A stretch of 64,000 bases of DNA. Origin: an uncultured bacterium. Lineage in GTDB: Bacteria; Acidobacteriota; Aminicenantia; UBA2199. A program made the position numbers and the translations under genes. Below are positions 327-52,602 of this stretch, in pieces. Location: positions 14,183-78,182 of the forward strand of contig CBFDCR010000014.1 of the NCBI GenBank assembly GCA_965603365.1, written 5' to 3'. How positions within the stretch are numbered: position 1 is the stretch's first letter; the number at the start of each line of letters is the position of its first letter. The notes beneath the pieces were generated by a model. That model had not been told where the DNA came from. It ran no database searches and saw nothing but the letters and a program-made list of their open reading frames with translations.

Positions 327-920
327 CTACTTGTTGAGTTTGAGTTTGCCGATGACTTTGACCAGTTCTTCGTGGAGGATGTGGGAGAGTTCCATGGGTA
401 CCAGGTGGGTCTTTTTGTCTTTTAAGGCCTTCTTGCGGTTGAAGGTATGGGAGAGGATGAGTCGATTGGACTCGAATTCCCGGATCTCGATCTCCATGGC
501 CAGCCTGGCATACCACACCCTGATGGCATCCACCTCCTCCAGGGTCAGCACCCTTGCCTGCATGGTCCACTGGGGCGTGCCTTCGGAAAACTGGCGGATC
601 ACCCGCTTAAATACATTATTCTTATTCAGGAACTCCACCACCGTATCCCGGATCAACTCGCCCGGCTTCTTGATCCAGAAACTGTAAGAGTAGTAGTTCA
701 ACTCAAAGGGAGATTCCCGGTACACCAGCCGGTAGTCGTCGTAGATCCGTTCCACCTTCACCCGTTTGACCAACAACACCCGGTCAATCGGTGTTAGCCC
801 CTTACTCTCCCCCACCGGCAGCTTTAGTTGAAAATAACGCTTGTAAGGGGAGGTCATGCAGCCCCCCAAAAAGATGGCGATTAAAACAAGACAACAAGAG
901 TATCGGGAAAAACGTTTCAT
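327..920 (-). CDS. ABC-transport auxiliary lipoprotein (PqiC/YmbA-like)
   Basis: 197 aa with lipoprotein signal ...LIAIFLGGC. ATGA start/stop overlap with the upstream MCE gene. Last gene of the Mla-like operon. Confidence 0.7.
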   Translation of the reverse strand: MKRFSRYSCCLVLIAIFLGGCMTSPYKRYFQLKLPVGESKGLTPIDRVLLVKRVKVERIYDDYRLVYRESPFELNYYSYSFWIKKPGELIRDTVVEFLNKNNVFKRVIRQFSEGTPQWTMQARVLTLEEVDAIRVWYARLAMEIEIREFESNRLILSHTFNRKKALKDKKTHLVPMELSHILHEELVKVIGKLKLNK

Positions 921-1852
921 TTTTTTCTCCTCTTTTCTTTCCGGGTACGAATAAGGATGGTGGGGTCCTCGCTTAAATTCCGGGAAAACCGGGCCAGATT
1001 CTCCAGTGATTCCCGCAGGCCCACCAGGGTCTTGTTGAGTTCATCCTTTACATCCAGGAAGGTGCCTTCTATTTTGCGAATGCTGGTGGTGGAGGTCTGG
1101 AAAAAGGCATCCACATCTTTTAGAGTCTTACCCAACTCCTCATCGGAAAAACGGGCCGACAGGTTATCGACCAATTTTTCCGTCTTTTCTACGATCCTAA
1201 CGATGTCCAGCCGACTCAGACTGTCGGAAAGGCGGTTGACCTTTTGGGAAAACTTCTCTATATTTTCCAGGGAACGGGCCATTGACATTCGCTGCTCCTG
1301 GATAAAGGATTTCAGCACAGCCGTACTCTCTTCAATATTTCCCAGGATGCGGGAGATCTCCTCTTCCCGGTCCTCACCGAGCAATTTATTGATATTCTTC
1401 ACCGCCTTATCGATATTGGAAACGATGTCTTCGGCCTTTTCCCCCAGACCCCTCTTCATGGGAATCACGCCCCCGGGTTCGAGGTTTTCCGAGGCCGATT
1501 TACCGCCGGATAATTCCACGAACTTGAGCCCGGTAATACCGGCATACGACAATTGGGCCCGCATGTCTGTCTTAACGGGAAAGCCCTTATTGATCCTCAC
1601 CTCCACCAGGATGGAGCTCAAATCCTTCGAGTTGACCTCGATTTCCCGTACCTTGCCGATATCCACCCCCTGGTACTTCACATTGGAGCCTTCATTCAGC
1701 CCATATACGGAAATGCCTTTAAAGCTAATGAAATACTTATTGCCCTCTTCTTTCAACTTGGGCAGGATAAAGATGCCCAAAATCACGATTAGCAGGACAA
1801 TGGATACCACCAAAAAAATACCCAGCCTCTGTTTTTGTTCTCTGGTTAACAT
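917..1852 (-). CDS. MlaD/MCE-family substrate-binding protein
   Basis: 311 aa. N-terminal TM helix, then MCE motifs (GLNEGSNVKYQGVDIGKV...YAGITGLKFVELSGG) and a long helical C-terminus. Overlaps the ATPase gene by 7 nt. Confidence 0.85.
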   Translation of the reverse strand: MLTREQKQRLGIFLVVSIVLLIVILGIFILPKLKEEGNKYFISFKGISVYGLNEGSNVKYQGVDIGKVREIEVNSKDLSSILVEVRINKGFPVKTDMRAQLSYAGITGLKFVELSGGKSASENLEPGGVIPMKRGLGEKAEDIVSNIDKAVKNINKLLGEDREEEISRILGNIEESTAVLKSFIQEQRMSMARSLENIEKFSQKVNRLSDSLSRLDIVRIVEKTEKLVDNLSARFSDEELGKTLKDVDAFFQTSTTSIRKIEGTFLDVKDELNKTLVGLRESLENLARFSRNLSEDPTILIRTRKEKRRKK

Positions 1853-2598
1853 TTTTCCTCATTCCTCATAAAAAAAGTGTCGATAAAAGAATCATTGGCG
1901 GAGAAAAGCTCGGTTAAAGTCCCATTAAAATACATGCTGCCGGCCTTCAACACAATGGCCCGGTCGGCAATCTTTTCAATCGACCGCAGTTCATGGGTGA
2001 CCACCACAAAGGTAATCCCAAACACCTGCCGCAGGTGCAGCATCAATTCATCCAGTTCGGCAGCGGTGATGGGGTCGAGTCCGGAGGATGGCTCATCGCA
2101 AAAAATAATTTCCGGGTCCAGGATCATGGCCCGGGCCAACGCGCCCCTCTTGCGCATGCCGCCGGAGAGCTCGGCGGGAAACTTGTGGCTGTTCTCGGCC
2201 AACCCCACCCCCGCCAGCCTCGAATGCACCATCTCCTGCTCAATCTCCCGGGGCAATTCCGGGTACTGCATGTTGAGGGGCAGGGCCACGTTATCATACA
2301 GGCTCAATGAATTAAGCAAGGCGCCGCCCTGGTATAATACCCCGATCCTTTCATACACATGGTGTACGGCATGTTCGGATAAGAAATCCAATTGCCGACC
2401 CCAAAAATAGACATGACCCTGCAGCGGCGGAATCAAGCCGATCAGGGTCTTTAAAACAGTAGATTTGCCGGAACCGCTTTTACCCAGTATGACACAGATT
2501 TCCCCCCTGTTGATGGTAAAACTCAAATCCCGCAGCACCGCGCTCCGCTCATAGCCCACATCCAGCCTGTCGGTTCTAATGATCTCTGCCCCTTCCAT
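1846..2598 (-). CDS. ABC transporter ATP-binding protein (MlaF-like)
   Basis: Walker A GKSGSGKST, signature LSGGMRKR, Walker B IIFCDEPSSGLD. I prefer the ATG at 2598 (MEGAEIIR...). The ORF-track start at 2637 would overlap the permease gene by 28 nt. Confidence 0.85.
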   Translation of the reverse strand: MEGAEIIRTDRLDVGYERSAVLRDLSFTINRGEICVILGKSGSGKSTVLKTLIGLIPPLQGHVYFWGRQLDFLSEHAVHHVYERIGVLYQGGALLNSLSLYDNVALPLNMQYPELPREIEQEMVHSRLAGVGLAENSHKFPAELSGGMRKRGALARAMILDPEIIFCDEPSSGLDPITAAELDELMLHLRQVFGITFVVVTHELRSIEKIADRAIVLKAGSMYFNGTLTELFSANDSFIDTFFMRNEEKC

Positions 2599-2609
2599 GT
2601 TCTTCACAT

Positions 2610-3680
2610 TTAGTATAAAAGTATGGCAAAGATGCAATCCAGCACGATAATAAGGGATATGGAGAGTACTACCGAGCGGGTGGTGGCCACCCCCACCTCC
2701 CGGGCACCCCTTTCCACGGAAAAGCCCTTGTAACCGGCACTCACCACCACCACCCAGCCAAAGGCGATGGTCTTGCCCAGCCCGATCAACACATCCCCCA
2801 GACCGACGATCAAGAACATCTCATCTAAAAAAACCCTGGGCACTATACCCAGGAAAAAGCGGGCCACCAGCATGCCGCCGAATATACCCACAAAATCGGC
2901 CAATGCCACCAGCAGGGGAATGGCCAACGTGATGGCTATTAACCGGGGCACCATTAAAAACTGTTCCGGCTGAAGGCCCATGGTCTTCAGGGCATCCACC
3001 TCCTCCATGACCTTCATGGAAGAGATCTCGGCGGTAATGGCGGCCCCGATTTTTCCCGCCAGGATTATGCCGGTCATCAGGGGCACCAGTTCCCGGATCA
3101 TGCCGAAGCCCACCAGATCGGCGATGTAGATGTCGGCGCCAAAAAGTTTCAACTGCTGGGCCGAGGTCACGGAGATGGTCACCCCCACCAGGAAGGAGAT
3201 GAAGCAGACAATGGGAGCCGAATCATAGGCCATAAAATAGAGTTGATGCAGGATCTCGCCGGGATAGACGCCCCGCCTCCTCACCAGGTATTGAAAGGTG
3301 TAATAAATTTCATCGGTCAGCAGTGACAGGTATATCCTGGCCCTGTTTTTGAATTTCCAGAAGCGGTCCCCCAATTTTTCGATCCGTTCGGCCACAACGG
3401 TTACGGGTTCCTCTTTTTGGGGTCGAACCTTTTCCTCTGAAAGATACTTTTCAAAAATCCGGCTGAACTCCGGCCTGACATTCTCAAAGGCGACATTTTT
3501 AAAGTGTTTTTTCACATAATTTAAAAAGGCGATTCCGGCGGAATCAAACTTCTCCACCTCGCCAAAATCCATCACCAATGCAGTCGATTTATCTCTGCTC
3601 TTGAGATCTTTAAATAACACCGCTGCATTGCCGATGACGAGTTCTACAGGCAGAAGAAGTTTTTCACCTTTTTTTTCCAT
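2610..3680 (-). CDS. MlaE-family ABC permease with N-terminal STAS-like domain
   Basis: About 100-aa STAS-like N-terminus (FDSAGIAFLNYV) fused to a multi-TM MlaE-type permease (MIRELVPLMTGIILAGKIGAAITAEISSMKVMEEVDAL). The track start at 3692 is TTG; the ATG at 3680 has GAAGG upstream. Confidence 0.85.
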   Translation of the reverse strand: MEKKGEKLLLPVELVIGNAAVLFKDLKSRDKSTALVMDFGEVEKFDSAGIAFLNYVKKHFKNVAFENVRPEFSRIFEKYLSEEKVRPQKEEPVTVVAERIEKLGDRFWKFKNRARIYLSLLTDEIYYTFQYLVRRRGVYPGEILHQLYFMAYDSAPIVCFISFLVGVTISVTSAQQLKLFGADIYIADLVGFGMIRELVPLMTGIILAGKIGAAITAEISSMKVMEEVDALKTMGLQPEQFLMVPRLIAITLAIPLLVALADFVGIFGGMLVARFFLGIVPRVFLDEMFLIVGLGDVLIGLGKTIAFGWVVVVSAGYKGFSVERGAREVGVATTRSVVLSISLIIVLDCIFAILLY

Positions 3681-3731
3681 AATAACCTTCAAGCCCCTAT
3701 TTTAATACAAATCGCCCCATCTATTCAAGGC

Positions 3732-3788
3732 AAATTGCAGAATAACCATTTGGTTGTTGGCTGTTGGTTGTTGGTTATTTTGCAATTT
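3732..3788 (-). other. long stem-loop (17-bp arms, one mismatch) just downstream of the peptide-precursor gene
   Basis: AAATTGCAGAATAACCA (3732-3748) pairs with TGGTTATTTTGCAATTT (3772-3788). The loop is a TGGTTG-type microrepeat. No U-run follows, so it is not a canonical intrinsic terminator. Confidence 0.55.
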
Positions 3789-3821
3789 GCAATGGACAGA
3801 CGAAAGGAAACAGGCAAAAAA

Positions 3822-4001
3822 TCAGGGACAGGCGTATATTCCCGTGATGCAAAAGTTTGTGCACCAGTTTGTGCAATACGGAGGAAGTATCGTTATATGG
3901 TCGTGCTCTCCTCCTTTAACGTCCTTCATCTGGGATTCGTCCAAATTGGCTACAGTTGCTTTGTTTAATGAAAGTTTCCTTGAAACTTCTCTTGTTTTCA
4001 T
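3822..4001 (-). CDS. GG-leader peptide precursor (RiPP/bacteriocin-like), 59 aa with a Cys/Thr-rich 28-aa core
   Basis: The leader MKTREVSRKLSLNKATVANLDESQMKDVKGG has the (K)LSLNKxTxxNL...VKGG pattern of GG-motif natural-product precursors. The core is EHDHITILPPYCTNWCTNFCITGIYACP. AAGGAGG lies 7 nt before the ATG at 4001, and the gene has its own promoter. Confidence 0.75.
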   Translation of the reverse strand: MKTREVSRKLSLNKATVANLDESQMKDVKGGEHDHITILPPYCTNWCTNFCITGIYACP

Positions 4002-4037
4002 TTCATTTCCTCCTTTAATTATTTTCATTTAGCCAAC

Positions 4038-4066
4038 ATTCTATCATGCCGATATAGCCTTGTCAA
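4038..4066 (-). promoter_or_regulatory. sigma70-type promoter of the peptide precursor
   Basis: On the minus strand: TTGACA (4061-4066), 17-nt spacer, TAGAAT (4038-4043). It lies about 35 nt upstream of the ATG. Confidence 0.7.
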
Positions 4067-4264
4067 AATAAAGAACACAGGAGATTTTCTTTAGTCCCGG
4101 AGATGAAAAACAGGACAGGGGGATGAGCCAGTCCGGCACCAATAGATGCCCCTGTAAACGAAAATTCTCCTGTTCCCTACCCCCATCTATTTTTTACATC
4201 CCTCCATTATTCCACCTTCCCATTATTCCATCTCGAAAGCAAAGGGAACGGAGTAAAAAAGGTC

Positions 4265-4369
4265 GATATCGGAGCTCGAAGCTGTGATATCGGAGCTCGA
4301 GGCTGTGATATCGGAGCAAAAAGGGTCGCGATCGGAGCTCGAGGCATCGATATAAGAGCTCGAAGGGTC
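4265..4369. repeat. five tandem copies of a ~21-bp unit (GATATCGGAGCTCGARGCTGT)
   Basis: Units at 4265-4285, 4286-4306, 4307-4329, 4330-4348 and 4349-4369. Each carries GAGCTC, and most carry GATATC. The total length is 105 bp, i.e. 5 x 21. Confidence 0.9.
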
Positions 4370-4384
4370 AAAATCGCAATGATT

Positions 4385-4412
4385 GTAGGGGGCGCAGATC
4401 TGCGCCCCCTAC
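4385..4412 (-). terminator. GC-rich perfect hairpin downstream of the MauE-like gene
   Basis: GTAGGGGGCGCAG-AT-CTGCGCCCCCTAC is a perfect 28-nt palindrome lying 20 nt after the stop at 4432. The tail is only moderately U-rich on the minus strand. Confidence 0.6.
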
Positions 4413-4431
4413 CCACCGTGCCCTCCCCCAT

Positions 4432-4899
4432 TTATTGAGAGACCGAGGGATGGGGGGTGCTGGGTTTGTGGAAGAAGATGATGATCAGGCCGGGGAGGAG
4501 CATGAGGAGGTCGCGGAAGGCATCCACGATGAAGTTGCCTTCCCCCGCTTCACTGGAGGTGGTAAAGCAGCCGCAGTTGAAATTGAAACCCCGGATGGCA
4601 TTAACGACAAGGGTAATCATGAATACTGCCAGTAGAGAGGAGAGAAGAATCGCGGCGGTGCGGGGAAAAATGCCGATGACCAGGAAAATCCCGGTGACCA
4701 TCTCCAGCCAGGGCAGTGCCACCGCCATAAAATGGATGAATAGATCCGGTACCAGGCGGTACTGGTAAATAATATCGGCAAAGGCCTGGGGGTGGGCGAT
4801 CTTGTCCAGGCTGGCGTAGATAAAGAGGCCCCCCAGGATCAACCGGCAGAGGACCTGAACGGGACGGGAACTTAAGAAGCGGGCGATCCCGGTTTTCAT
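4432..4899 (-). CDS. MauE/DoxX-family redox-associated membrane protein
   Basis: Four or five TM helices and the NCGCF motif typical of MauE. I take the start at MKTGIARFL (4899), 1 nt after the rhodanese stop. The longer track ORF (to 5055) overlaps the rhodanese gene. Confidence 0.75.
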   Translation of the reverse strand: MKTGIARFLSSRPVQVLCRLILGGLFIYASLDKIAHPQAFADIIYQYRLVPDLFIHFMAVALPWLEMVTGIFLVIGIFPRTAAILLSSLLAVFMITLVVNAIRGFNFNCGCFTTSSEAGEGNFIVDAFRDLLMLLPGLIIIFFHKPSTPHPSVSQ

Positions 4900-4900
4900 C

Positions 4901-5410
4901 TTAATATCCCCCTCCAACCGGCGCCATATCCGGCGAACCGGCGCTCTCAATGGGATTGCCCAGGGCCTGCCAATCATCAAAGCCGCCTTTATATACCAGG
5001 ATATCGGTATACCCCTTCTCATGGAGCTTATTCGCCAGGAAGGTGGAATCCTCACAATTGAAGTCGATACAATACGTCACAATGGTCTTGCCTGAATTCA
5101 ACAGATCCTGCAGCCGGGCAAAGGCCTCGTCAAATTCAAACAGGGAGAAACTGTAGGCACCGGGGATATGCCCCTCGTTATAGGCATGTTGCTGCCGGGC
5201 ATCCAGCACAATGGCCATGTCGCCCTGGATCAAACTCCTCAAAAAATCGGCATCGACGTGCTGGAAGTAGACGTCCGTCTTGTTCTCCCCTTTAGCCGGC
5301 GTGTAGGTCTTAAAAATCGGCACCCCCGACGAAAAAAACTGATTGTAGACCATCCCACTGGCCAATGTCAAAAACACAATGATGGTTGTTTCAAGAATAA
5401 ATTTCTTCAT
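4901..5410 (-). CDS. membrane-anchored/secreted rhodanese-domain protein
   Basis: 169 aa. N-terminal hydrophobic anchor, then a rhodanese fold (VLDARQQHAYNEGHIPGA...IVTYCIDFNCEDS active-site loop...GGFDDW). Confidence 0.8.
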   Translation of the reverse strand: MKKFILETTIIVFLTLASGMVYNQFFSSGVPIFKTYTPAKGENKTDVYFQHVDADFLRSLIQGDMAIVLDARQQHAYNEGHIPGAYSFSLFEFDEAFARLQDLLNSGKTIVTYCIDFNCEDSTFLANKLHEKGYTDILVYKGGFDDWQALGNPIESAGSPDMAPVGGGY

Positions 5411-5544: not shown

Positions 5545-6072
5545 TCAGAAGGCCCCCCATTTCTGTTTGCCGGGGATGTAGTTACTGGGGCAGATGAAGC
5601 GAAAGAGACGGGCAACTTTTTTCGATTTCTCCAGTTTTTCCTGGCTCTGGGCCTGCATTGCCCCCAACTTTTCCCCGAAGATTTCATCAAAATAGGCGCC
5701 CGCCGCGTTTTTGCGTTCCTTTTCAGTAGCAAATTGCCGGCGAATTTTTTTCAACTCCCCGGCATCCAACCAGAAGCCGCCGCAGCCGGCACACTCATCC
5801 ACTTCCACCTCCCGTTTAACGCTGAAGAAATGGCGCAGCAGCACAAAATCCTGACATTTGGGACACTTTCTCCGCTCGGCGGGATCCAGCCGGACACTTT
5901 CATCCCTTTCGATGTCAAGCAATTCCTGGCCCAAAGACTCATGCTGCTCGTCAAATTTATGCAGTTCAAATTTATCGAACCAGATGCCGCCGCAGCCGCC
6001 TTCACAGACATCCACGGTGATATCGCCAATCGTCTTCTCTGTCAATGATCTTCCACATGCCGGACAATACAT
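5545..6072 (-). CDS. tandem TFIIB-type zinc-ribbon protein (zf-TFIIB family)
   Basis: Two repeats of CPxC...VDxCxxCGGxWxDxxEL (CPACG...CEGGCGGIWFDKFEL and CPKCQ...CAGCGGFWLDAGEL). Confidence 0.7.
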   Translation of the reverse strand: MYCPACGRSLTEKTIGDITVDVCEGGCGGIWFDKFELHKFDEQHESLGQELLDIERDESVRLDPAERRKCPKCQDFVLLRHFFSVKREVEVDECAGCGGFWLDAGELKKIRRQFATEKERKNAAGAYFDEIFGEKLGAMQAQSQEKLEKSKKVARLFRFICPSNYIPGKQKWGAF

Positions 6073-6162: not shown

Positions 6163-7869
6163 TCATTTGATCCCCAATTTTTTCATCTTTTTATACAATG
6201 CCGTGCGGCTGAGACTCAACCGTCTGGCGGCCCGGCTTTTATTCCATTTACTCTCTTCCAGCATAGTTTGAATTTCTTTTTTTTCATTTTTATAACCGGC
6301 AGTCACCTCCGGTTTTAATACCGACAGGTCGATCCTGCCGCCGCTGCTGGTCTGATTGACGGCACTCTTGATTTCATTCTCCAGTTCCCGGACATTGCCG
6401 GGCCAATCGTACGTTTCCAGGGCCTCCAGCGCTTCGGCAGAGAATCCCTCCACCTCCACCTGATTCAACCAGGCAAACACTTCGGTGAAATGGTGGGCCA
6501 ACGGGACAATGTCAGCCACCCTCTCCCTTAAAGGGGGAATAACGAGACTGACCGGGGCGACCTGGTAATATAGATCCTGGCGGAAACGGTTCTCCTCGAT
6601 CAATCCCCTGACATCTTGCCTGGACAGGGAGATGATCTTCAAATCCACCGGCAGCGGTCGATCCTCCCCCAGCCGATATAATTCCCTCTCCTGGATGACC
6701 CGCAGGATTTTGGCCTGTAAATCCAGGGGCATTTCACCGATCTCGTCCAGCACCAGTGTACCTTCGGAGGAGAGCTCTATTTTGCCCGGGCGCTCCTGCC
6801 GGCCAAAGAGTTCAACCTCCAGCAAACCTTCGCCCAGGCCGGCACAATTTACCTTCACATATGTATCTCTCCGGCGATCCGAATGGAGATGGAGCCATTG
6901 GGCCAACAGATCCTTGCCCGTGCCCATCTCCCCCTCGATGAGCACAAACAGATCGCTTCGGGCGATCTTCCTGCACTTTTCCCGCAGCCGGATCATGGCT
7001 TCGTCTTCGCAGACAATGGTTAATCCTACCTCCCCCTCTGCCAACGACTCTTCCGGTAATCGATTCTGTTCGATGAGGCTGTGGATCAGGGAAAACTCCC
7101 TGGAAAGGTCCCGCAAAAGCTGGATGGTGCTGTCGGGCAAATCGGCCCCGGTGTTGTCCAGGTAGATCAAAGAGACCGGCAGTCCCTTGACCTCCAGGGG
7201 AAACGCATACCAACAGACTTCATCTTTACCCTGGGTGGTCTGCCGGAGTACTTCCTGATCCGATATCTCCAACTGGCCGATGACCTGATCTAAATCCAGG
7301 GGGGGATCTTCAGCGAAATTTTGGGCCGTCAGGATCTTGTTCTCATCTTCCACGGCGGTGGCAATCAGCAGGCTTCCCTGCTTGAAAATGTTGGTCAGGG
7401 GCTCTTTGATCTGATCCAGGATATCCGAAAATTTTTGAATTCTAAATCCCTGGTGCAGCGCGGTGATCACTACCCGGTCAAACTCATCCAGCCGGGTTCT
7501 GGCCTCTCCCCAGGAGGAGGAGATCAAATCGGATACTTTCCAGACAATGGGTGCCGATTCCGGCGACAGCACGAACTCTTCCGGATTGCCCCTTTTCATA
7601 AAAAACTCAATGTAGCCGATGCGGAAGGATTCGTTCAACTTGATCCGCATCTTGCTGACCTTCATATTTTCATAAAAAATGCCGTTTTTGGACTGCAAGT
7701 CCTCGATGAGGATCTCATCCCCCAGCACGGTAAGCCGGGCATGCCTCTTCGATACAAAACCCTCCCGGATACACAGATCGTTTTTGCTGCTCCTCCCCAG
7801 ACCGATACTCTCCCTATCCAGCGGAAACTTCTGAATCGACCCGTTGTACAGATACAACAAATACTTCAT
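6163..7869 (-). CDS. FHA-domain, Fis-type AAA+ transcriptional regulator (sigma54-EBP family, GAFTGA loop missing)
   Basis: N-terminal FHA (LGRSSKNDLCI...VSKRHARL...SKNGIF). AAA+ core (IEGEMGTGKD, LVLDEIGEM, WPGNVRELEN). C-terminal HTH (NKSRAARRLSLSRTALYKKMKKLGI). Confidence 0.85.
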   Translation of the reverse strand: MKYLLYLYNGSIQKFPLDRESIGLGRSSKNDLCIREGFVSKRHARLTVLGDEILIEDLQSKNGIFYENMKVSKMRIKLNESFRIGYIEFFMKRGNPEEFVLSPESAPIVWKVSDLISSSWGEARTRLDEFDRVVITALHQGFRIQKFSDILDQIKEPLTNIFKQGSLLIATAVEDENKILTAQNFAEDPPLDLDQVIGQLEISDQEVLRQTTQGKDEVCWYAFPLEVKGLPVSLIYLDNTGADLPDSTIQLLRDLSREFSLIHSLIEQNRLPEESLAEGEVGLTIVCEDEAMIRLREKCRKIARSDLFVLIEGEMGTGKDLLAQWLHLHSDRRRDTYVKVNCAGLGEGLLEVELFGRQERPGKIELSSEGTLVLDEIGEMPLDLQAKILRVIQERELYRLGEDRPLPVDLKIISLSRQDVRGLIEENRFRQDLYYQVAPVSLVIPPLRERVADIVPLAHHFTEVFAWLNQVEVEGFSAEALEALETYDWPGNVRELENEIKSAVNQTSSGGRIDLSVLKPEVTAGYKNEKKEIQTMLEESKWNKSRAARRLSLSRTALYKKMKKLGIK

Positions 7870-9346: not shown

Positions 9347-10261
9347 TTAAACGGATAATGTCTTCTCAAGTTTTTTGGTGGCTGCCAGTCGTTTGTTTTT
9401 ATCCATTCTTTTGATATTCAGAATTTTCCATTTCACCCCGGGGAGGTGAGAAAAATCCCCGAGCCCGAGTTTCTCCCATTCGGGATCTCCCCTTTTAACC
9501 GACAACAGGAACTCTTTTTCATCACCTGTTAAATCTTCTCTTAATCTCAATATCAGTTGCTCCCGTATCTCACACAAGCGATCTAAATCGATATTCTCTT
9601 TCACCATGCCAATAAATTCTCTGTTAAAAGTCAGACTGAAATCAATCTTATTGGGATTCAGTAATTCAGAAATCGGACGATTAGATTGAATGAGGTAAAC
9701 CAGGAATACTTTCCGTATCTCATCTGAAAATAAATCATTTCTAAACATCATGTGAATATCAAATAAATCTCTGGGATGCTGTCTATCAAGAGCCGCGCAG
9801 ATCTTCCCACCGAATAAATCGGCCGGCGAAAGAATTTGAGCTTCGGGATAGATATTAAAAATTTCGGCAATTCCTCTCTTAATCCTCATTGAAACAGGTT
9901 GCTTGACGCTTCCCCTCAACAATTCATTGGGTTCAATTTTTATTGGCCCCTGCATACTGAAAATATTCAATTTACCTACATTTGCATTTCTACCCCTACT
10001 CATATTCACGGAGTATTCAGGAAATCTTTTATTGATGTCTTCTTTTAAATTGGCCATCACTTCGTTCATTATTTGAAAAGATGCTTCTCTCGGCTTAATG
10101 GGAAGATAGCAAAGATCAATATCCACCGAAAGCCGTGGGGCTTCAAATACAAAAAAGTTTATAGCAGTTCCTCCTTTGATGGCAAAGTCTTTGTACCTAT
10201 TAAATAGAGGAAGTATCTTTAATAGAACGCCTACTTGATTGAGATACTTCCTGTCAAACAT
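9347..10261 (-). CDS. AbiEii/AbiGii nucleotidyltransferase toxin (type IV TA/abortive infection)
   Basis: FAIKGGTAINFFVFEAPRLSVDIDL motif, 304 aa. Overlaps the upstream AbiEi gene by 8 nt. AT-rich relative to its neighbours. Confidence 0.85.
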   Translation of the reverse strand: MFDRKYLNQVGVLLKILPLFNRYKDFAIKGGTAINFFVFEAPRLSVDIDLCYLPIKPREASFQIMNEVMANLKEDINKRFPEYSVNMSRGRNANVGKLNIFSMQGPIKIEPNELLRGSVKQPVSMRIKRGIAEIFNIYPEAQILSPADLFGGKICAALDRQHPRDLFDIHMMFRNDLFSDEIRKVFLVYLIQSNRPISELLNPNKIDFSLTFNREFIGMVKENIDLDRLCEIREQLILRLREDLTGDEKEFLLSVKRGDPEWEKLGLGDFSHLPGVKWKILNIKRMDKNKRLAATKKLEKTLSV

Positions 10262-11009
10262 GAAAACCTCGGGGGATGACCAGGTTATAGTTTTTTAGAT
10301 ACTTGCCGCCTTTCTCAACCGTAATGATTGAATGGCCTGAATTAAGTATCCCTGGATCGACTTCTTTTTTCCAGGGAGGATCAAAGAGATCGAAAAAGAA
10401 AAAGAAGATCCTTTTGGCCTTGAACGAAGCCTTAACGAGTATTTCGTTTATCAATTCAGGATTCAGGCTGTCCAGAATCTCAAAAAGCTGGGCCGTTTCA
10501 TCAAAACTTTCACCCCGACCGATAAGTTCAATCTGTTGGACAATTGCCAATTCTCTAGTGGCGATGAAAAAATCAAATTCCTTCGTATTGGGATTAAATA
10601 GAAGTTGTTTCCCCTTCCATTTTGAAGATTTGATGAAATGGATATCTTTTCCCCATTGAAGGTGCCTTACCCAGGAAGGCAGTGTGGTCTTACTATCTGA
10701 AAACATGTAGACTCTCTCTCTTTCGCGATAATACTGCCTGATTCCGGCCATCTCAAGGGCTGTTTTGGCACCGGCATGCAAATCGAGTGACATATCAATC
10801 TGGAGCGCGTGCAGTGTACCTTCAAGCGTTATTGGGGCGTCGGGAAATTTGAAAGCCCCGACACCAATTGACTCAATCCATCCGCTCTCTTTGTATTTCC
10901 TGGCCAGGGAAGAAGAGATGCCCAGGCGATTTAATTTTTGCGTAGTAATCGGCACCTCTTTATTTAGAAGCATCAATCTCTTGAGATTTTTTGTTCTCGA
11001 TGTACTCAT
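10254..11009 (-). CDS. AbiEi-family antitoxin/transcriptional regulator
   Basis: N-terminal LNRLGISSSLARKYKESGWIESIGVGAFKF pattern. The ATG at 11009 is preferred; the track start at 11024 is TTG. Confidence 0.8.
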   Translation of the reverse strand: MSTSRTKNLKRLMLLNKEVPITTQKLNRLGISSSLARKYKESGWIESIGVGAFKFPDAPITLEGTLHALQIDMSLDLHAGAKTALEMAGIRQYYRERERVYMFSDSKTTLPSWVRHLQWGKDIHFIKSSKWKGKQLLFNPNTKEFDFFIATRELAIVQQIELIGRGESFDETAQLFEILDSLNPELINEILVKASFKAKRIFFFFFDLFDPPWKKEVDPGILNSGHSIITVEKGGKYLKNYNLVIPRGFHV

Positions 11010-11132
11010 GGTACAATCATACAATATTTTTTAAAGTGTTTCAAGCAAATATTAAGGAGAAAGGGGGCGATTATTGAAATAGAAGCGCAGGGGGCGTTGG
11101 GGGAAACGCCCCTTGCGTTTATGTTGTGTGGT

Positions 11133-45701: not shown

Positions 45702-46331
45702 TTAACGGTTACAATATTTATTTAATTCGGTTACCAGTTGGTGGACCGTAGTGGATGGATTGTCTTTTCCCGGATTCGGGGGATTGTAGCGGTTTAACAG
45801 CCTTTCGGCATTTTTTATTGCTTCTTTCTGCTTGTTTAACAATTCCCGGTACATGGATGGATGATTCTTTTTATAGGGATGGTTTAAAAGCTGAGAAAGT
45901 TTCTCTATATATTGTTGCCTGGACATGGCCGTCTGGTAATAATGAAAGTGCAGCAGGTACCACAACTCGAAGGCCTCGTTGGAGTATGCGACCTTAATGC
46001 CCTGCCTAACGGCAAATGTGATGGCTTCACTAAAATTCTCCAGGGTGAAACCATTGCGATCGAATACGCACCACACTTGATCGTAAACCTCCTCATTGAT
46101 TCGGGCCCTGTCTCTGATCGCCAATGCCTTTCTTACCAGATTCACGGTATTATCCCCGGCTCCGATGACCTTGACTGTTGCCGAACTCAGCCGAAAAGAG
46201 TTAAAATAATTCGGTTCCGTTTTTTGCCCCTCGCAAACGATCAGAAAACTCTTTGGCGGCCTGCCTCTAAGCCTCGATTTTCTCTTAAGCGATCTGTTTT
46301 TTTTCTTCCAGAATAGGTTATCCGTTCCCAT
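45702..46331 (-). CDS. RloB-family (Toprim-like) protein
   Basis: FLIVCEGQKTEPNYFNSF motif, 209 aa. TAATG overlap with the upstream ATPase gene. Confidence 0.85.
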   Translation of the reverse strand: MGTDNLFWKKKNRSLKRKSRLRGRPPKSFLIVCEGQKTEPNYFNSFRLSSATVKVIGAGDNTVNLVRKALAIRDRARINEEVYDQVWCVFDRNGFTLENFSEAITFAVRQGIKVAYSNEAFELWYLLHFHYYQTAMSRQQYIEKLSQLLNHPYKKNHPSMYRELLNKQKEAIKNAERLLNRYNPPNPGKDNPSTTVHQLVTELNKYCNR

Positions 46332-47584
46332 TAAACCTTATCATTATCAGTGCTGTCCTCAAACAGAGATTCAATATTACCGATAAACGGGATGGCTCCG
46401 TATTTTCCCATGATGTAATCTTTATTGAATGAGGCATCCTTGCGGACTTTGTATTCCTCCAGGGAGTAAAGTTCCGACGCCCCATATTCATCTTTCTGGA
46501 TAAACCAGATCTGGTCTCTCCTGAAAAATTGATTGGACAGGATGTTGGTATCATGGCTGACGAATATGAGCTGTGATTTGGGCCTCCAGGCGTTATCTTT
46601 TTTTGGTTTGTAATGATGAAACATCTCGATGAGTGCCCTCGTTAAAAGAGGATGAAATTTCGATGTGAGTTCGTCTATTACCAACACATCGTCATTTTTT
46701 AAAGCTTGATAAATGGGCTGTGAGAGTTCGAAAAGAGCCTGAGTCCCGGCCGATTCGTCTCTAAGAAGGTCGAACTTTTCCTCCGATAACGGGTTGTTAT
46801 GCTGATCGTATATTTGATGTATAACCCTATAACAGGATGACTGGTCATATACCCTGCCATCGTTTCGATCCTTCCAAATATCTTCCTTCTTGATGTTTTT
46901 TAATCCCATATCGGCAACCTTTAAAAGTTTTAGTACAAATTCCTTGAATTCATGATGCTCAAGTTCATAATCACACCAACAATCCGATTCAATATCAATA
47001 ACAATAACAAGATGATCGAACCATTCCAATATCTTTTTGGCGGTCTGACCATTAAATTGATCGACCACAGAAAGGAAAAGGGCGTTTGCCCTTGTCTTGC
47101 TTGCTAATCCTTTTCCTTCTTTAAAACCGGGACCTATCTTAATTTGATCTTTTTCTCTGGTAAAAAGGGTGGCCTCCCTGATGGTGGGAACATAATAGAG
47201 CCATTCATGGTAAACCCGTTCCCTGTCTACCTGGAATCCATATCTATAGCGTATCCCGTCAATTAAAAAAGTAACCTCAAAGGTCGAAGGCACGGTCTTT
47301 GTTTCAGTACTTAATCGAAATTCATCAACCTTTTTTATTTTGTTTGCAGAACTTTCCTTAGAAGAAGTTAATACAAGCTCCTTCATTAATTTAAGGGCTT
47401 TAACCAGGTTCGATTTTCCACTGGCATTGGCCCCATAAAGGGCAGCACTTTTTAGCAGTCTCAGCTTATCGTTCACCCGGATAGTGTTGGTATCACGATG
47501 CTCTCTGTCTGCTGAAGCCACCATGCTCAGGGTAACAATATCCTTGAAGGAGAGGAAATTTCCTACTTTAAATTCTATCAACAT
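46331..47584 (-). CDS. AAA_21/ABC-type ATPase (RloA / OLD-ATPase-like)
   Basis: MLIEFKVGNFLSFKD start, Walker A GANASGKSNL, and C-terminal LVIDELTSKFHP and QLIFVSHDT. The ATG at 47584 follows GAGAGG. AT-rich. Confidence 0.85.
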   Translation of the reverse strand: MLIEFKVGNFLSFKDIVTLSMVASADREHRDTNTIRVNDKLRLLKSAALYGANASGKSNLVKALKLMKELVLTSSKESSANKIKKVDEFRLSTETKTVPSTFEVTFLIDGIRYRYGFQVDRERVYHEWLYYVPTIREATLFTREKDQIKIGPGFKEGKGLASKTRANALFLSVVDQFNGQTAKKILEWFDHLVIVIDIESDCWCDYELEHHEFKEFVLKLLKVADMGLKNIKKEDIWKDRNDGRVYDQSSCYRVIHQIYDQHNNPLSEEKFDLLRDESAGTQALFELSQPIYQALKNDDVLVIDELTSKFHPLLTRALIEMFHHYKPKKDNAWRPKSQLIFVSHDTNILSNQFFRRDQIWFIQKDEYGASELYSLEEYKVRKDASFNKDYIMGKYGAIPFIGNIESLFEDSTDNDKV

Positions 47585-47717
47585 CTTTAGCCTCTCTTTG
47601 TTCTTATAATCTATTATCAAATTAAAGTCAAGTTTTTTGAGAAAATTCCTCAAAAAAGTGTCTTTTGCAACCAAATCCTGCTGGCGAATAGGGCAAAGGA
47701 GTGCGGTTTGTTCTCAT

Positions 47718-48784: not shown

Positions 48785-49342
48785 ATGAGGGTAAATAATT
48801 TTAAATCTCTTAAAGGGAACAAAGACCTTTTAAAGGCCAAAAAAGTGGGCATTTTAGCATCCAGGCACATTCTCCCCGGTCTTACCCAATTTGTGATGGA
48901 GTCTATGCAAAGGCTAGCCAGATTGGAAACCGTATTCATTGGCGGCTGGCATGCACCGATTGAAAAAGAGATTCATAAATTTTTGGTTAAGCGTCAAGTA
49001 TCACACATTCATGTTTGTGCCCAAACCGTTGATAAAACATACTGTGCTTTAAACCCAACTAAAACCCTGTTTATATCGCACTGCCATCCCGGTATTACCC
49101 GCATATCGAGGGAAAATGCTCTTAAAGGAAACAGTGTCTTATGTGAATTATCGGACGTTATGTTAATCCCCTGGTTAGATCCTTATGGCAAAACGCATAA
49201 AATTGTTCTTGACTTCTGTAACAGGATGCCGGTCTTTGTTTTTGATACAGAATTCAATTCTGGTCTAATTGAGGCAGGGGCCCTCTCTTATCATTGCAAC
49301 AAAGTAATATCTACTCTGGAGAACGATCATGCGAACAATTGA
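48785..49342 (+). CDS. DprA/Smf-like (SLOG superfamily) Rossmann protein
   Basis: 185 aa. VGILASR...TVFIGGWHAPIEKEIH...SRENALKGNSVLCELSDVMLIPW...GKT...PVFVFD follows the DprA Rossmann pattern without its flanking DNA-binding domains. 14-nt overlap with the next gene. Confidence 0.6.
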   Translation: MRVNNFKSLKGNKDLLKAKKVGILASRHILPGLTQFVMESMQRLARLETVFIGGWHAPIEKEIHKFLVKRQVSHIHVCAQTVDKTYCALNPTKTLFISHCHPGITRISRENALKGNSVLCELSDVMLIPWLDPYGKTHKIVLDFCNRMPVFVFDTEFNSGLIEAGALSYHCNKVISTLENDHANN

Positions 49343-52300
49343 AGAGATCATAAAAACTCAATCCCATCTGGTGGTGCGCCAGATTCGAGAGGCGACGAGC
49401 TGGACCGAATCCGAAGAGGATTTACGAATAGCAACAGAAAGAATACTGGGAGAATTCAAAAACCAGGCAAAATTACAAGATTTTAGAGGACATCACGAGG
49501 TTACGATTGGCAAGGGAAGAGCAGATTCTGTTTACAATTACGTGGTTATAGAATATAAAAAACCCAAACGGCTAAGTGAATCAAATACTGCCCCGGGAAA
49601 CCGGGAAGTTATCGAGCAGTTAAAGACACGCCTGTATGACCTGGAAAAAGAAGAGAGGAGAAAAATCACGAAATTATTCGGCATCGGTTTTGATGGCCAC
49701 TGGTTTATCTTTGTTCGGTTCCGAAATAACAGTTGGGAAATCAGCAATCCTCTTCCTGTCACCCCCCAGACTACAGAGAGATTCTTACGGGCATTGTTAT
49801 CGCTTGCCGCAACCGGTAAAGCATTTCAACCGGCCTATCTTTCCGGGGACTTTGGTGCCGATTCGCTGTTATCGGGGGAAGGTATAAAGACATTTTATAA
49901 AGCCATCACCAACTCCGAAAATCCCAAAGCACAGGTTCTTTTTGATGAGTGGAAAATTCTTTTCGGTGAAGTGGGGGGCTATGACGTAAAAGCCTTTGAG
50001 GAAAAAATACAGGTTCTGGCCGATTTCTATCATATCAAGGGGAAACCCGATCCTTCCGCACTCCTCTTCTCCGTACATACCTATTATGCCCTATTCATGA
50101 AGTTGCTGGCTGCCGAAATCATGAACTACTTTAATCCCATGTTCCCATCTATTCTCAGTCGTCTTCATCAGATTGCCACCGGAGAAAAGCTTTTGCGCGA
50201 ACTGCGAGAACTGGAAAAGGGTGGAATTTACCGACAGATGGGGATTACGAACTTCTTAGAGGGCGATATGTTTTTATGGTATCTGGAGGCCTGGGATACC
50301 AAAGATAAAAAAGGAGAAAAGATTGATCTGGAGCGAGTCATCCGTGACATGATCGGTAGATTGGATGAATATGACCCGGTAACCCTCTCTATCGAACCCG
50401 GCGAATCGAGAGACCTGCTTAAAGAACTGTACCAGAACCTCTTCCCCCAAAAAATACGGCACGATCTCGGCGAATATTATACTCCAGATTGGCTTGCCCA
50501 ATGGGTGATTGAAAAAGTCGGGATCAAAGGAAATCCGGATGAACGCATACTCGACCCGGCATGCGGCTCCGGCACATTCCTGGTGCTGGCGATTCAGAAG
50601 GTACGTGAATTTGCCGACGAAAAAATGATACCGGAAAAGGAGCTTTTAAAAAAGATTAATGAAAATGTGATCGGCTTTGACTTGAATCCTCTGGCAGTTA
50701 TCGCCGCCCGGCTCAATTATCTCATCGCCATCAGAGATTTAATTAAATACGGAAATCAGATCGAAATCCCCGTCTACCTGTGCGATTCGGTCATGACACC
50801 ATCCGAATATGGAGAACTTTTTACAAATAACAAAGGCGTTGCTGCCCCGGGCGGAAGACGAGGGGCAGTGAAGGAGCTTAAAACCAGCGCTGAAACCTTT
50901 TACATCCCTACAGAGATCGCTGCCTCCCGCGGACTGGTGGCCAGATATGCCGAAGAGTTGGAATACTGTGTACAGCATGAATTTAGTCCCGAAGAGTTCA
51001 TCCAGAGGCTAAAGGAAGAAGACCTGCCGGTTCTTCATGAAGATTTGCACAAAGATCTGTTCAATATGTTAACCAGTCTAAATAAACGGGACAAAAACGG
51101 TATCTGGGCGCGCATTATAAAGAATGCCTTTGCCCCCCTCTTCATCCAGCCGGTGGACTACGTGATCGGTAATCCACCATGGGTAAACTGGGAGAGCCTG
51201 CCGGGAGAGTACCGGCAGGACAGTAAAGAGTTATGGTTTAAATACAACCTGTTTCCCCACAAAGGCATGGATGCCATCCTGGGTAAAGGGAAGAAAGATA
51301 TTTCTATGATTATGACGTATGTTGCCATGGACAAATATTTGAAGGCTCACGGCCGTCTGGGATTCGTAATTACCCAATCGGTGTTTAAGACCTCCGGGGC
51401 TGGCCAGGGTTTTCGACGATTTCGGATCAATAACGAAATCCCCATCGCACCGGTGTACTGCGACGACATGGTAAAAATCAAACCCTTTGAAGCGGCCAAT
51501 CGCACCGCAGTCATCGTGCTGGAACGGGACAAAGAGTTAGAGTACCCGGTTCCCTACACGGTCTGGAAAAAGAAGGAGCGACAGAAAATAGACAGCCACA
51601 CCCCGCTATCGGCTGTGCTGGAGAGGACGCTGAGAGATCCATTTGTAGGAAAACCGGTGGATGGCAGGGACAAAACTTCCGCCTGGATAACAGGCAAAAC
51701 GAAGGCACTCGAGGCCGTAAACAAAGTACTCGGGAAATCCGCCTACAAAGCCCATGAAGGTGTAAATACCGGTGGTGCCAATGGAGTCTATTGGGTCGAA
51801 ATCCTGCAGGAGTTGGCGGAAGGCAAGGTACTGGTGCGAAACATCACCGAAGGGGCCAAACGAAAAGTCAGGCAGGCAGAAGCGGTGATTGAAAAGGATT
51901 TACTGTATCCCCTGGTGCGGGGGCGCGACGTCAGACGCTGGCAGGCCAAACCTTCGGCCCACATCATCATGGTACAGGACCCCCAAAAACGGCGGGGCAT
52001 CGACGAATCCATAATGAAACAAAAATACCCCCTCACTTATACTTATCTTAAACAATTTGAGAGAGTATTAAAGTCACGGGCAGCGTACAGGCGCTATTTC
52101 AAAGAGAGCGATCCGTTTTATTCAATGTTCGATGTGGGCAGCTATACATTGGCCCCCTGGAAAGTAAGCTGGCGATACATTGCCAGTGAATTCACCTGTA
52201 GTGTGATATCTGCCGATCAAGATTATAGCAACAATCTTATTATCCCGGATCACCGTTTAATTGTGGTCTCCTTTCAAACCCCAGAAGAAGCCCACTACCT

Positions 52301-52601: not shown

Positions 52602-52602
52602 A

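What the first reader, a model, noticed from the sequence alone, without database searches (positions are those of the whole stretch)
3822..5410. GG-leader, 4-Cys peptide precursor downstream of a rhodanese + MauE/DoxX pair (possible minimal sulfur/disulfide RiPP locus)
Seen in sequence:
- The 59-aa ORF has a strong ribosome-binding site and its own TTGACA-17-TAGAAT promoter.
- Its leader, KLSLNKATVANLDESQMKDVKGG, matches the GG-cleavage leader class.
- Its core, EHDHITILPPYCTNWCTNFCITGIYACP, has four Cys (spacing C-x3-C-x3-C-x6-C) and four Thr.
- A 17-bp stem-loop follows the stop codon.
- On the same strand upstream lie a membrane-anchored rhodanese (active-site loop YCIDFNCEDS) and a MauE-family membrane protein (NCGCF). 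They are separated from the peptide gene by a terminator-like hairpin and a repeat tract.

Established knowledge:
- MauE is needed for disulfide-rich methylamine dehydrogenase small-subunit maturation.
- GG leaders are normally removed by C39-peptidase ABC exporters.
- None of the usual maturases (LanB/C/M, rSAM, YcaO) and no C39 exporter is in this window.

Inference: the peptide may be oxidatively folded or sulfur-modified by the adjacent pair, or matured by distant genes.
Basis: partly seen in the sequence, partly recalled or inferred. Interest (0 to 1): 0.65.

Follow-up and report, generated by a model that had tools for sequence, protein, structure and literature searches.

The report
Orphan lanthipeptide-type precursor peptide gene
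A real 59-residue precursor gene of a known family of ribosomally made natural-product peptides sits alone in a small insertion that splits an unrelated operon, so its rhodanese and MauE neighbours look like bystanders rather than its maturation enzymes.

Summary
The 59-aa ORF (3822-4001) is a genuine RiPP precursor. Its leader matches NCBIfam NF038153 (class I lanthipeptide leader, 47.8 bits against a cut-off of 22), Pfam PF28317 Lant_leader_dom and, more weakly, TIGR04149. It carries the published LxLxKx5L...GG motif. One 78%-identical orthologue keeps all four Cys.

The proposed link to rhodanese and MauE is not supported:
- In 42 loci with family precursors (386 kb) there is no MauE and no rhodanese.
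- In 11 rhodanese-MauE loci (7 distinct contexts) there is no such peptide.
- In two relatives the order is rhodanese-MauE-MlaE-MlaF-MlaD-aux, with MauE and MlaE overlapping by 4 nt. The window has the same six genes, with a 739-bp insert between MauE and MlaE. The insert holds a palindrome, 21-bp repeats and the peptide gene with its own promoter and stem-loop.

No LanB, LanC, rSAM-SPASM or C39 exporter lies in the 64 kb. In Bacteroidia the same leader family sits in LanC-LanB-C39 clusters. In Aminicenantes-like contigs it is usually orphan.

Best reading: an orphan precursor matured in trans, most likely to a four-ring methyllanthionine peptide. It is a new member of a known kind, of modest interest.

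The parts
3822..4001 (-). Precursor peptide CDS, 59 aa plus stop. The leader is residues 1-31 (3909-4001) and ends in GG. The core is residues 32-59 (3825-3908): EHDHITILPPYCTNWCTNFCITGIYACP.
   Evidence: NF038153 scores 47.8 bits against a cut-off of 22; TIGR04149 scores 34.7 against 25. PF28317 is precomputed for this protein. Orthologue P0002 is 78% identical.
4009..4015 (-). Ribosome-binding site AAGGAGG, 7 nt before the ATG at 4001.
   Evidence: Read from the sequence. Family members also start at MKTKK, which supports the 59-aa start.
4038..4066 (-). Sigma-70-like promoter TTGACA-17-TAGAAT with an extended -10 TG.
   Evidence: 11 of 12 matches.
3720..3800 (-). Long stem-loop downstream of the peptide stop. 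The arms are 29 nt and the loop is made of CCAACAA-type repeats.
   Evidence: -35.8 kcal/mol, z = -4.3. There is no canonical T-run directly after it.
3693..4431 (.). 739-bp insert between the MauE stop and the mlaE start. It is absent from the syntenic relatives L049 and L050.
   Evidence: The peptide gene and its upstream stretch are 42% G+C, against 50-56% in the flanking genes.
4385..4412 (.). Perfect 28-nt palindrome GTAGGGGGCGCAGATCTGCGCCCCCTAC, a terminator-like hairpin after MauE.
   Evidence: the 72-nt stretch 4360-4431 that contains it folds at -38.5 kcal/mol, z = -4.4.
4249..4376 (.). Tandem repeat with a 21-bp period, about 5 copies. Its function is unknown.
4426..4436 (-). Copy 1 of the direct repeat AATA(A/G)ATGGGG. 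It overlaps the MauE stop codon.
4181..4191 (-). Copy 2 of the direct repeat. It lies between the repeat/hairpin module and the peptide-gene module.
3715..3725 (-). Copy 3 of the direct repeat. It lies just after the peptide stem-loop, about 35 nt before the mlaE ATG at 3680.
   Evidence: An exact pair plus a third copy with at most 1 mismatch occurred in 0 of 1000 shuffles.
4432..4899 (-). MauE/DoxX membrane protein, 155 aa, with the NCGCF motif. It is a neighbour, not part of the peptide system.
   Evidence: PF07291 E 3.7e-25. The CGC motif is conserved in 8 homologues.
4901..5410 (-). Rhodanese with an N-terminal membrane anchor, 169 aa, active-site loop YCIDFNCEDS. It is a neighbour and is translationally coupled to MauE.
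   Evidence: PF00581 E 1.2e-18. The C-x4-C motif is conserved in 8 homologues.
327..3692 (-). STAS-MlaE, MlaF, MlaD and an auxiliary lipoprotein. This is the downstream part of the operon that the insert split.
   Evidence: The proteins are 45-66% identical and in the same order as in L049 and L050.

Best explanation
The 59-aa ORF is a functional but orphan RiPP precursor of the Bacteroidota-type 'LxLxKx5L...GG' lanthipeptide leader family (NCBIfam NF038153, Pfam PF28317). The host is an Aminicenantes-like bacterium.

Shown:
- Family membership of the leader.
- A conserved leader with a variable Cys/Thr core, including an orthologue that keeps all four Cys.
- Its own promoter, RBS and flanking hairpins.
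- Its position inside a 739-bp lineage-specific insert that splits a conserved rhodanese-MauE-MlaEFD operon.
- No statistical linkage with rhodanese or MauE.
- No maturase or exporter in the 64-kb window.

Inferred:
- These are most likely a LanB dehydratase and a LanC cyclase.
- They would dehydrate Thr37, 44, 48 and 53 and close four successive methyllanthionine rings onto Cys43, 47, 51 and 58. Every Thr lies 3-6 residues N-terminal to a Cys.
- A C39-peptidase ABC exporter would then cut after Gly-Gly31 and export the 28-residue product.

This would resemble prochlorosins, where one enzyme serves many dispersed precursors. The rhodanese-MauE pair is an independent thiol-redox or sulfur module.
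For: Leader family:
- NF038153 E 1.2e-12, 47.8 bits against a cut-off of 22. This is as high as the L009 peptide (50.6 bits), which lies in a LanC-LanB-C39 cluster.
- PF28317 Lant_leader_dom is assigned to this protein.
- The LxLxKx5L + GG motif of Bacteroidetes class I LanAs is described in PMC7268733.
- The family has a conserved leader and hypervariable Cys/Thr/Ser cores: 66 representatives and 236 proteins.
- Cores of P0002, P0124 and P0128 share YCTxxCTxxC.

Genomic context of the family:
- Bacteroidia loci L009, L010 and L046 carry LanC, LanB and a C39 ABC exporter; L038 carries LanC and LanB.
- Orphan precursors between housekeeping genes are the rule in 40-52% G+C contigs, including the Aminicenantes MAG loci L008 and L011.

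No linkage to rhodanese-MauE:
- hmmsearch found 0 MauE and 0 rhodanese in 42 leader loci (386 kb), and 0 leader peptides in 11 rhodanese-MauE loci.

Insertion:
- In L049 and L050 the MauE stop overlaps the MlaE start by 4 nt. All six genes are syntenic with the window at 39-66% identity.

Own transcription signals.
Against: - No LanB, LanC or C39 gene was seen in the window. The rest of the genome could not be read, so the trans enzymes are assumed.
- The peptide also passes the TIGR04149 (rSAM-modified RiPP) cut-off.
- Some relatives sit next to LanC without LanB, or next to rSAM-SPASM plus LanC (L018, L025). LanB-less rSAM+LanC clusters are common in Bacteroidales (PMC10352776). The chemistry may therefore not be classical lanthionine.
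- Contigs of the closest relatives (L001-L004) end at the hairpin. The age of the insert is therefore unknown, and so is whether those relatives carry the peptide.
- Only one orthologue exists in 5.8 billion proteins.
Confidence: 0.55

Rival explanations
1. The peptide is matured in trans by a radical-SAM/SPASM enzyme, alone or with a LanC-like protein and no LanB. This would be the TIGR04149 / Bacteroidales rSAM+LanC type. The product would carry sactionine- or ranthipeptide-like Cys-to-Thr/Asn thioethers rather than lanthionines.
For: - TIGR04149 scores 34.7 bits against a cut-off of 25. P0002 scores 39.8.
- L025 has rSAM-SPASM, a precursor and LanC. L018 has LanC with no LanB in the held DNA, which ends 387 nt upstream of the first precursor.
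- rSAM+LanC clusters lacking LanB are frequent in Bacteroidales (PMC10352776).
- The core has a repeated CTN(W/F) motif.
Against: - NF038153 scores higher than TIGR04149.
- Every Cys has a Thr 3-6 residues upstream, the classical lanthionine geometry.
- No rSAM-SPASM gene is in the window.
- Only 1 of about 36 non-redundant loci showed an rSAM relative of the L025 seed.
Confidence: 0.17
2. The peptide is an unmodified or disulfide-only double-glycine bacteriocin or signal peptide. It would be cleaved and exported by a distant C39 ABC transporter, and its four Cys would form two disulfides through the general periplasmic machinery.
For: - The GG leader and the even number of Cys.
- No maturase lies nearby.
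- Many family members are orphan.
Against: - The leader family is the one curated for modified peptides.
- Where the genomic context is informative, it is LanBC.
- The Thr positions co-conserve with the Cys in P0002.
Confidence: 0.1
3. One reading: the adjacent membrane rhodanese and MauE oxidatively fold or sulfur-modify this peptide, forming a minimal three-gene RiPP locus.
For: - Same strand and physical proximity (about 430 bp).
- Both neighbours carry conserved redox-type Cys motifs: C-x4-C in the rhodanese and CGC in MauE.
- MauE is needed to mature the disulfide-rich methylamine dehydrogenase small subunit (established knowledge).
Against: - Co-occurrence is 0 of 42 and 0 of 11.
- The pair is followed by unrelated genes elsewhere: M29 peptidase, EamA, SpoIIE or MlaE.
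- The peptide lies in an insert that interrupts the pair's own operon.
- A strong hairpin and a separate promoter lie between them.
- The leader type is recognised by LanB/C39 systems.
Confidence: 0.04
4. The gene is a stranded relic. A precursor cassette moved into a genome that lacks the cognate enzymes, so it is expressed uselessly or is decaying.
For: - Only one orthologue is known.
- It lies in a low-G+C insert.
- No partner genes are in 64 kb.
Against: - The ORF, RBS and near-consensus promoter are intact.
- The orthologue keeps the leader 28/31 identical and all four Cys, while the core varies at 11 of 28 positions. That is the pattern of a selected RiPP precursor.
- Orphan precursors of this family are common in the same kind of genomes.
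Confidence: 0.1

Closest known systems
Bacteroidota class I lanthipeptide precursors with LxLxKx5L...GG leaders (NCBIfam NF038153 lant_leader_L1a, Pfam PF28317; pinensin-type family; Walker et al. 2020, PMC7268733)
   Same: - The leader HMM match is well above the cut-off.
- The leader has the LxLxKx5L motif (L10, L12, K14, L20) and a Gly-Gly end.
- The core is short and rich in Cys and Thr, with Thr N-terminal to each Cys.
   Different: - No LanB, LanC or C39 exporter lies within -3.8/+60 kb.
- The host is an Aminicenantes-like bacterium, not Bacteroidota.
- The gene stands alone in an intergenic insert.
TIGR04149 rSAM-modified GG peptides and the LanB-less rSAM+LanC clusters of Bacteroidales (PMC10352776)
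   Same: - The peptide passes the TIGR04149 cut-off.
- The leader architecture is related.
- One relative (L025) sits next to rSAM-SPASM plus LanC.
   Different: - No rSAM gene is near the window peptide.
- The score is lower than for the lanthipeptide leader model.
Prochlorosins (one promiscuous ProcM enzyme and many dispersed precursors; PMC10783134)
   Same: This is a 'works like' comparison only: a conserved leader, hypervariable cores, and precursor genes scattered away from the enzyme gene.
   Different: - A different leader family (Nif11/NHLP).
- A class II enzyme.
- Cyanobacteria.
- Here, trans maturation by a single enzyme set is inferred, not shown.
DoxX-SseA(rhodanese)-SodA membrane-associated oxidoreductase complex of M. 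tuberculosis (cited in PMC6930017)
   Same: For the neighbour pair only: a DoxX-family membrane protein working with a rhodanese-type thiol or sulfur protein, with no RiPP involved.
   Different: - The window pair is a MauE/DoxX protein with a CGC motif plus a membrane-anchored single-domain rhodanese with C-x4-C.
- No SodA is present.
- Homology to the mycobacterial proteins was not tested.
MauE of methylamine dehydrogenase gene clusters
   Same: The Pfam PF07291 domain.
   Different: No methylamine dehydrogenase (mauA/mauB) or other mau genes appeared among the ORFs scanned. Here the gene is paired with a rhodanese and, ancestrally, with the Mla lipid-transport genes.

Membership tests
Class I lanthipeptide precursor, LxLxKx5L-GG leader family (NF038153 / PF28317) | Leader matches the curated HMM above its cut-off | tested here: met
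   47.8 bits against a cut-off of 22, E 1.2e-12. PF28317 is precomputed for the protein.
Class I lanthipeptide precursor, LxLxKx5L-GG leader family (NF038153 / PF28317) | LxLxKx5L motif and a Gly-Gly cleavage site at the leader end | tested here: met
   L10-S-L12-N-K14-ATVAN-L20 ... K29-G30-G31, read from the sequence. The motif is defined in PMC7268733.
Class I lanthipeptide precursor, LxLxKx5L-GG leader family (NF038153 / PF28317) | Core with Ser/Thr and Cys placed so that thioether rings can form | tested here: met
   The possible pairs are T37/C43, T44/C47, T48/C51 and T53/C58. The Cys are all conserved and the Thr largely conserved in P0002.
Class I lanthipeptide precursor, LxLxKx5L-GG leader family (NF038153 / PF28317) | LanB dehydratase and LanC cyclase encoded with the precursor | tested here: not met
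   None in the 64-kb window. The rest of the genome was not available.
Class I lanthipeptide precursor, LxLxKx5L-GG leader family (NF038153 / PF28317) | C39-peptidase ABC exporter (PCAT) for GG cleavage | tested here: not met
   There is no PF03412 hit and no phmmer hit to C39 seeds in the window.
Class I lanthipeptide precursor, LxLxKx5L-GG leader family (NF038153 / PF28317) | Dehydrated residues and (methyl)lanthionine rings in the mature peptide | not testable with these tools
   Needs mass spectrometry of the native or co-expressed peptide.
TIGR04149 rSAM-modified RiPP | HMM match above the cut-off | tested here: met
   34.7 bits against a cut-off of 25.
TIGR04149 rSAM-modified RiPP | Adjacent radical-SAM/SPASM maturase | tested here: not met
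   No Radical_SAM or SPASM hit among the window ORFs scanned, and no phmmer hit to the L025 rSAM seed.
   0 of 42 leader loci have MauE or rhodanese. 0 of 11 rhodanese-MauE loci have a leader peptide.
   A strong hairpin, a repeat tract and a separate near-consensus promoter lie between MauE and the peptide gene. The peptide lies in an insert that is absent from L049 and L050.
MauE of methylamine dehydrogenase maturation | PF07291 domain | tested here: met
   E 3.7e-25.
MauE of methylamine dehydrogenase maturation | Location in a mau (methylamine dehydrogenase) gene cluster | tested here: not met
   The neighbours are a rhodanese, a Zn-ribbon protein, a sigma-54 activator and Mla genes. No mau-type family appeared in any Pfam scan.

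The most novel reading that the evidence does not exclude
Aminicenantes-like sediment bacteria may run a 'class I prochlorosin-like' system. Many orphan Lant_leader_dom precursor genes with hypervariable cores would be scattered among housekeeping genes. One distant enzyme set (LanBC, or rSAM/LanC-like) would mature them all. New precursor cassettes would spread by insertion into intergenic sites. In the window, the mark of such an event would be the triplicated 11-bp repeat AATA(G/A)ATGGGG, which flanks two inserted modules that split an operon.
Probability: 0.2. Interest if true: 0.55.

Novelty: new member of a known kind. Interest (0 to 1): 0.3.

Why it matters
If the trans-maturation reading holds, it adds an uncultivated phylum (Aminicenantes and relatives) to the producers of lanthipeptide-type RiPPs. 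It also shows that precursor-centred mining finds many orphan precursors that cluster-centred tools such as antiSMASH would miss. No paper in the held library mentions both Aminicenantes and lanthipeptides.

The negative result is useful too. It removes a tempting but unsupported 'rhodanese + MauE RiPP' model. It shows instead that the rhodanese(C-x4-C)-MauE(CGC) pair is a separate conserved module, ancestrally joined here to the Mla lipid-transport operon.

Tried and rejected
- Paralogous GG-leader peptides in the window: none, by tblastn and regex.
- Close relatives of the peptide in GTDB genomes and JGI metagenomes, using the two-sequence alignment: none.
- The 59-sequence alignment was too diverse to make search patterns. 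A 12-sequence subset worked.
- Exact-sequence look-ups of the window peptide, of P0002 and of a gene at the window edge found nothing. The rest of the 84.7-kb contig and the P0002 contig could not be read.
- Mobile-element idea: the insert has no DNA similarity to other loci or to the rest of the window, apart from the leader-coding part. Flanking direct repeats are significant in only 4 of 14 orphan loci, so this is inconclusive.
- Multi-copy REP-like element idea for the GTAGGGG...CCCCTAC hairpin: there is only one copy in the window. The contig breaks in L001-L004 are more simply explained as assembler failures at perfect palindromes.
- Rfam: no family matches the insert. The two chance miRNA hits have E > 0.5.
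- HvfX (Cu-binding RiPP maturation DoxX protein): 24 bits against a cut-off of 80, so MauE is not a member.
- The 74-aa ORF across the tandem repeats (4207-4431) was judged an artefact of the repeats.
Full report
OBSERVATION

All three genes lie on the minus strand.
- The peptide ORF is 3822-4001 (59 aa): MKTREVSRKLSLNKATVANLDESQMKDVKGG | EHDHITILPPYCTNWCTNFCITGIYACP.
- An in-frame ATG at 4028 would add 9 residues. However, GGAGG sits 7 nt before the ATG at 4001, the -10 box ends at 4038, and all relatives begin MKTKK. The 59-aa form is therefore the real one.
- The promoter-like site TTGACA-17-TAGAAT (4066-4038) has 11 of 12 matches and an extended -10 TG.
- A long stem-loop follows the stop codon: arms 3720-3748 and 3772-3800, -35.8 kcal/mol, z = -4.3.
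- Rhodanese (4901-5410; PF00581 E 1.2e-18; loop YCIDFNCEDS) and MauE/DoxX (4432-4899; PF07291 E 3.7e-25; NCGCF) are separated by one nucleotide.
- Between MauE and the peptide gene lie a perfect 28-nt palindrome (4385-4412; the 72-nt stretch 4360-4431 that contains it has z = -4.4) and a 21-bp tandem repeat (4249-4376).

WHAT THE PEPTIDE IS

The leader matches NCBIfam NF038153 'lant_leader_L1a, class I lanthipeptide' (47.8 bits, cut-off 22, E 1.2e-12). It also matches TIGR04149 'rSAM-modified RiPP', more weakly (34.7 bits, cut-off 25). The precomputed Pfam assignment is PF28317, Lant_leader_dom.

It carries the LxLxKx5L motif followed by Gly-Gly. Walker et al. described this motif for class I LanAs of Bacteroidetes whose clusters encode C39 proteases (PMC7268733).

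A full HMMER scan of 1.84 billion representatives gave 66 hits. A profile search gave 236 proteins. All have the conserved leader MKTKKfxKKLxLNKxTVANL..GG and hypervariable cores rich in Cys, Thr and Ser. JGI names many of them 'natural product precursor'.

Only one close orthologue exists, P0002 at 78% identity. Its leader is 28/31 identical and its core 17/28. All four Cys and three of the four Thr are kept, and the fourth Thr is replaced by a nearby Ser/Thr. That is the signature of a selected RiPP precursor. Cores of P0002, P0124 and P0128 share YCTxxCTxxC.

In the window core, every Cys has a Thr 3-6 residues upstream: T37/C43, T44/C47, T48/C51, T53/C58. This fits four consecutive methyllanthionine rings. 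That is an inference from established lanthipeptide chemistry.

WHAT IS AROUND IT

No LanB, LanC, LanM, rSAM-SPASM, YcaO or C39 exporter is in the window.
- Pfam scans covered all ORFs of 300 aa or more.
- phmmer with LanB, LanC, C39 and rSAM seeds was run against every six-frame ORF of 60 aa or more.
- There is no paralogous precursor either.

The named MauE homologues come from Candidatus Aminicenantes (62% and 52% identity), Zixibacteria and Thermodesulfobacteriota. The host is therefore probably Aminicenantes-like.

IS THE RHODANESE-MauE PAIR LINKED TO THE PEPTIDE?

Three independent tests say no.

(1) Contexts of the pair. In 11 loci (7 distinct contexts) the rhodanese gene always directly precedes MauE, but the next gene varies:
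- M29 peptidase in L005-L007;
- EamA in L048;
- SpoIIE in L051;
- MlaE in L049 and L050;
- the contig end in L001-L004.
None of these loci has a leader-family peptide.

(2) Contexts of the peptide family. There are 42 loci, about 36 non-redundant, totalling 386 kb. HMMs for this MauE and this rhodanese find nothing in them.

(3) Synteny. L049 and L050 have rhodanese-MauE-MlaE-MlaF-MlaD-aux with MauE and MlaE overlapping by 4 nt. The window has the same six genes in the same order at 39-66% identity, but with 739 bp (3693-4431) inserted between MauE and MlaE.

The insert holds the palindrome, the tandem repeats, and the peptide gene with its own promoter and stem-loop. The peptide gene and its upstream stretch are 42% G+C, against 50-56% for the flanking genes.

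An 11-mer, AATA(A/G)ATGGGG, occurs three times: at the MauE stop, before the peptide promoter, and before mlaE. An exact pair plus a third near-copy was seen in 0 of 1000 dinucleotide shuffles. This suggests two successive insertions or duplications at one site.

The adjacency is therefore recent and incidental.

HOW THE FAMILY IS MATURED ELSEWHERE

- In the Bacteroidia loci L009, L010 and L046 the precursor sits next to LanC, LanB and a C39 ABC exporter. L038 carries LanC and LanB.
- In 40-52% G+C metagenome contigs, and in the Aminicenantes MAG CS4-C025 (L008, L011), precursors are usually alone between housekeeping genes. Examples of neighbours are RNase Y, EF4 and arginine-biosynthesis genes, by my reading of the ORFs.
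- A few loci have LanC next door. L018/L023 has three tandem precursors, then LanC, then another precursor. L025 has rSAM-SPASM, a precursor and LanC.
- LanB-less rSAM+LanC clusters are known from Bacteroidales but are uncharacterised (PMC10352776).

MECHANISM

Most likely (0.55): the gene is transcribed from its own promoter. The leader is bound in trans by a distant LanB/LanC pair that installs four MeLan rings. A distant C39 PCAT cleaves after GG31 and exports a 28-residue peptide. This resembles prochlorosins, where one enzyme serves dispersed precursors (PMC10783134).

Shown: family membership, orphan status, the insertion, and the lack of linkage.
Inferred: the enzymes, the rings and the export.

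Rivals:
- rSAM(+LanC-like) thioether chemistry (0.17);
- a disulfide-only GG bacteriocin (0.10);
- a stranded relic (0.10);
- rhodanese/MauE-dependent maturation (0.04).

THE NEIGHBOUR PAIR

The rhodanese keeps a C-x4-C loop (YCxxxxCxDS) and MauE keeps CGC in all eight homologues aligned. This suggests a membrane thiol-redox or sulfur relay. The nearest precedent is the DoxX-SseA-SodA complex of M. tuberculosis (PMC6930017). Homology to it was not tested.

LIMITS

- The remainder of the genome, the P0002 contig and the regions downstream of MauE in the closest relatives could not be read.
- The contigs of L001-L004 all stop at palindromic hairpins. This is probably an assembly artefact.

VERDICT

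This is a real precursor gene and a new member of a known family. The proposed rhodanese/MauE RiPP locus is not supported. Interest is modest (0.3). The main open point is whether Aminicenantes-like bacteria run a dispersed-precursor lanthipeptide system.

Noticed in passing
window 34965-36434 (-): A 489-aa protein matches Pfam Endotoxin_N, the delta-endotoxin (Cry-type) N-terminal pore-forming domain, at E 1.8e-31. This is unexpected in a probable Aminicenantes-like sediment bacterium.
   Followed up: no
window 4385-4412; L001 6469-6510, L002/L003 ends, L004 3230-3262: Three independent assemblies of the 97%-identical relative end at or inside the perfect palindrome GTAGGGGGCGCAGATCTGCGCCCCCTAC. 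The 81% relative's contig ends at a similar GTAGGGGCG...CGCCCCTAC hairpin. The likely cause is de Bruijn assembly breaking at palindromes, which hides what lies downstream.
   Followed up: partly
window 3715-3725, 4181-4191, 4426-4436: The direct repeat AATA(A/G)ATGGGG is triplicated and brackets two modules of the insert (0 of 1000 shuffles). Flanking direct repeats are also significant at L029 (14 nt), L044 (15 nt) and L052 (12 nt), but not at 10 other orphan precursor loci. Whether precursor cassettes are mobile is unresolved.
   Followed up: partly
window 4249-4376: A 21-bp tandem repeat (GATATCGGAGCTCGAAGCTGT, about 5 degenerate copies) lies between the MauE hairpin and the peptide promoter. 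It has no Rfam match and no similarity elsewhere. Its function is unknown.
   Followed up: partly
window 4432-5410 (-); L049/L050 4517-8822: The membrane-anchored rhodanese (conserved YCxxxxCxDS) and MauE/DoxX (conserved CGC) form an invariant two-gene module. In L049 and L050 it is translationally fused to a STAS-MlaE/MlaF/MlaD/aux lipid-transport operon. A thiol-redox module tied to Mla has not been described, to my knowledge.
   Followed up: partly
L018 388-3058; L025 161-3702: L018 has three tandem family precursors, then LanC, then a fourth precursor, with no LanB in the 8 kb held downstream. L025 has rSAM-SPASM, a precursor and LanC. These may be LanB-independent variants of the system.
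   Followed up: partly
window 9347-11024, 45702-47674, 49329-55278 and several small gene pairs: The window is dense in defence and toxin-antitoxin genes: AbiEii next to a possible AbiEi partner (not scanned), an AAA_21 ATPase next to a possible RloB-like gene (not scanned), a 1090-aa N6_Mtase/Eco57I-like enzyme followed by an SNF2-type helicase, and several VapBC-like pairs by my reading of the ORFs.
   Followed up: no
window 6163-7869 (-) and 5545-6072 (-): An FHA-domain sigma-54 activator and a double Zn-ribbon (TFIIB-type) protein lie directly upstream of the rhodanese. They are conserved there in the 97% relative. I saw no convincing -24/-12 promoter upstream of the peptide gene by eye.
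   Followed up: no
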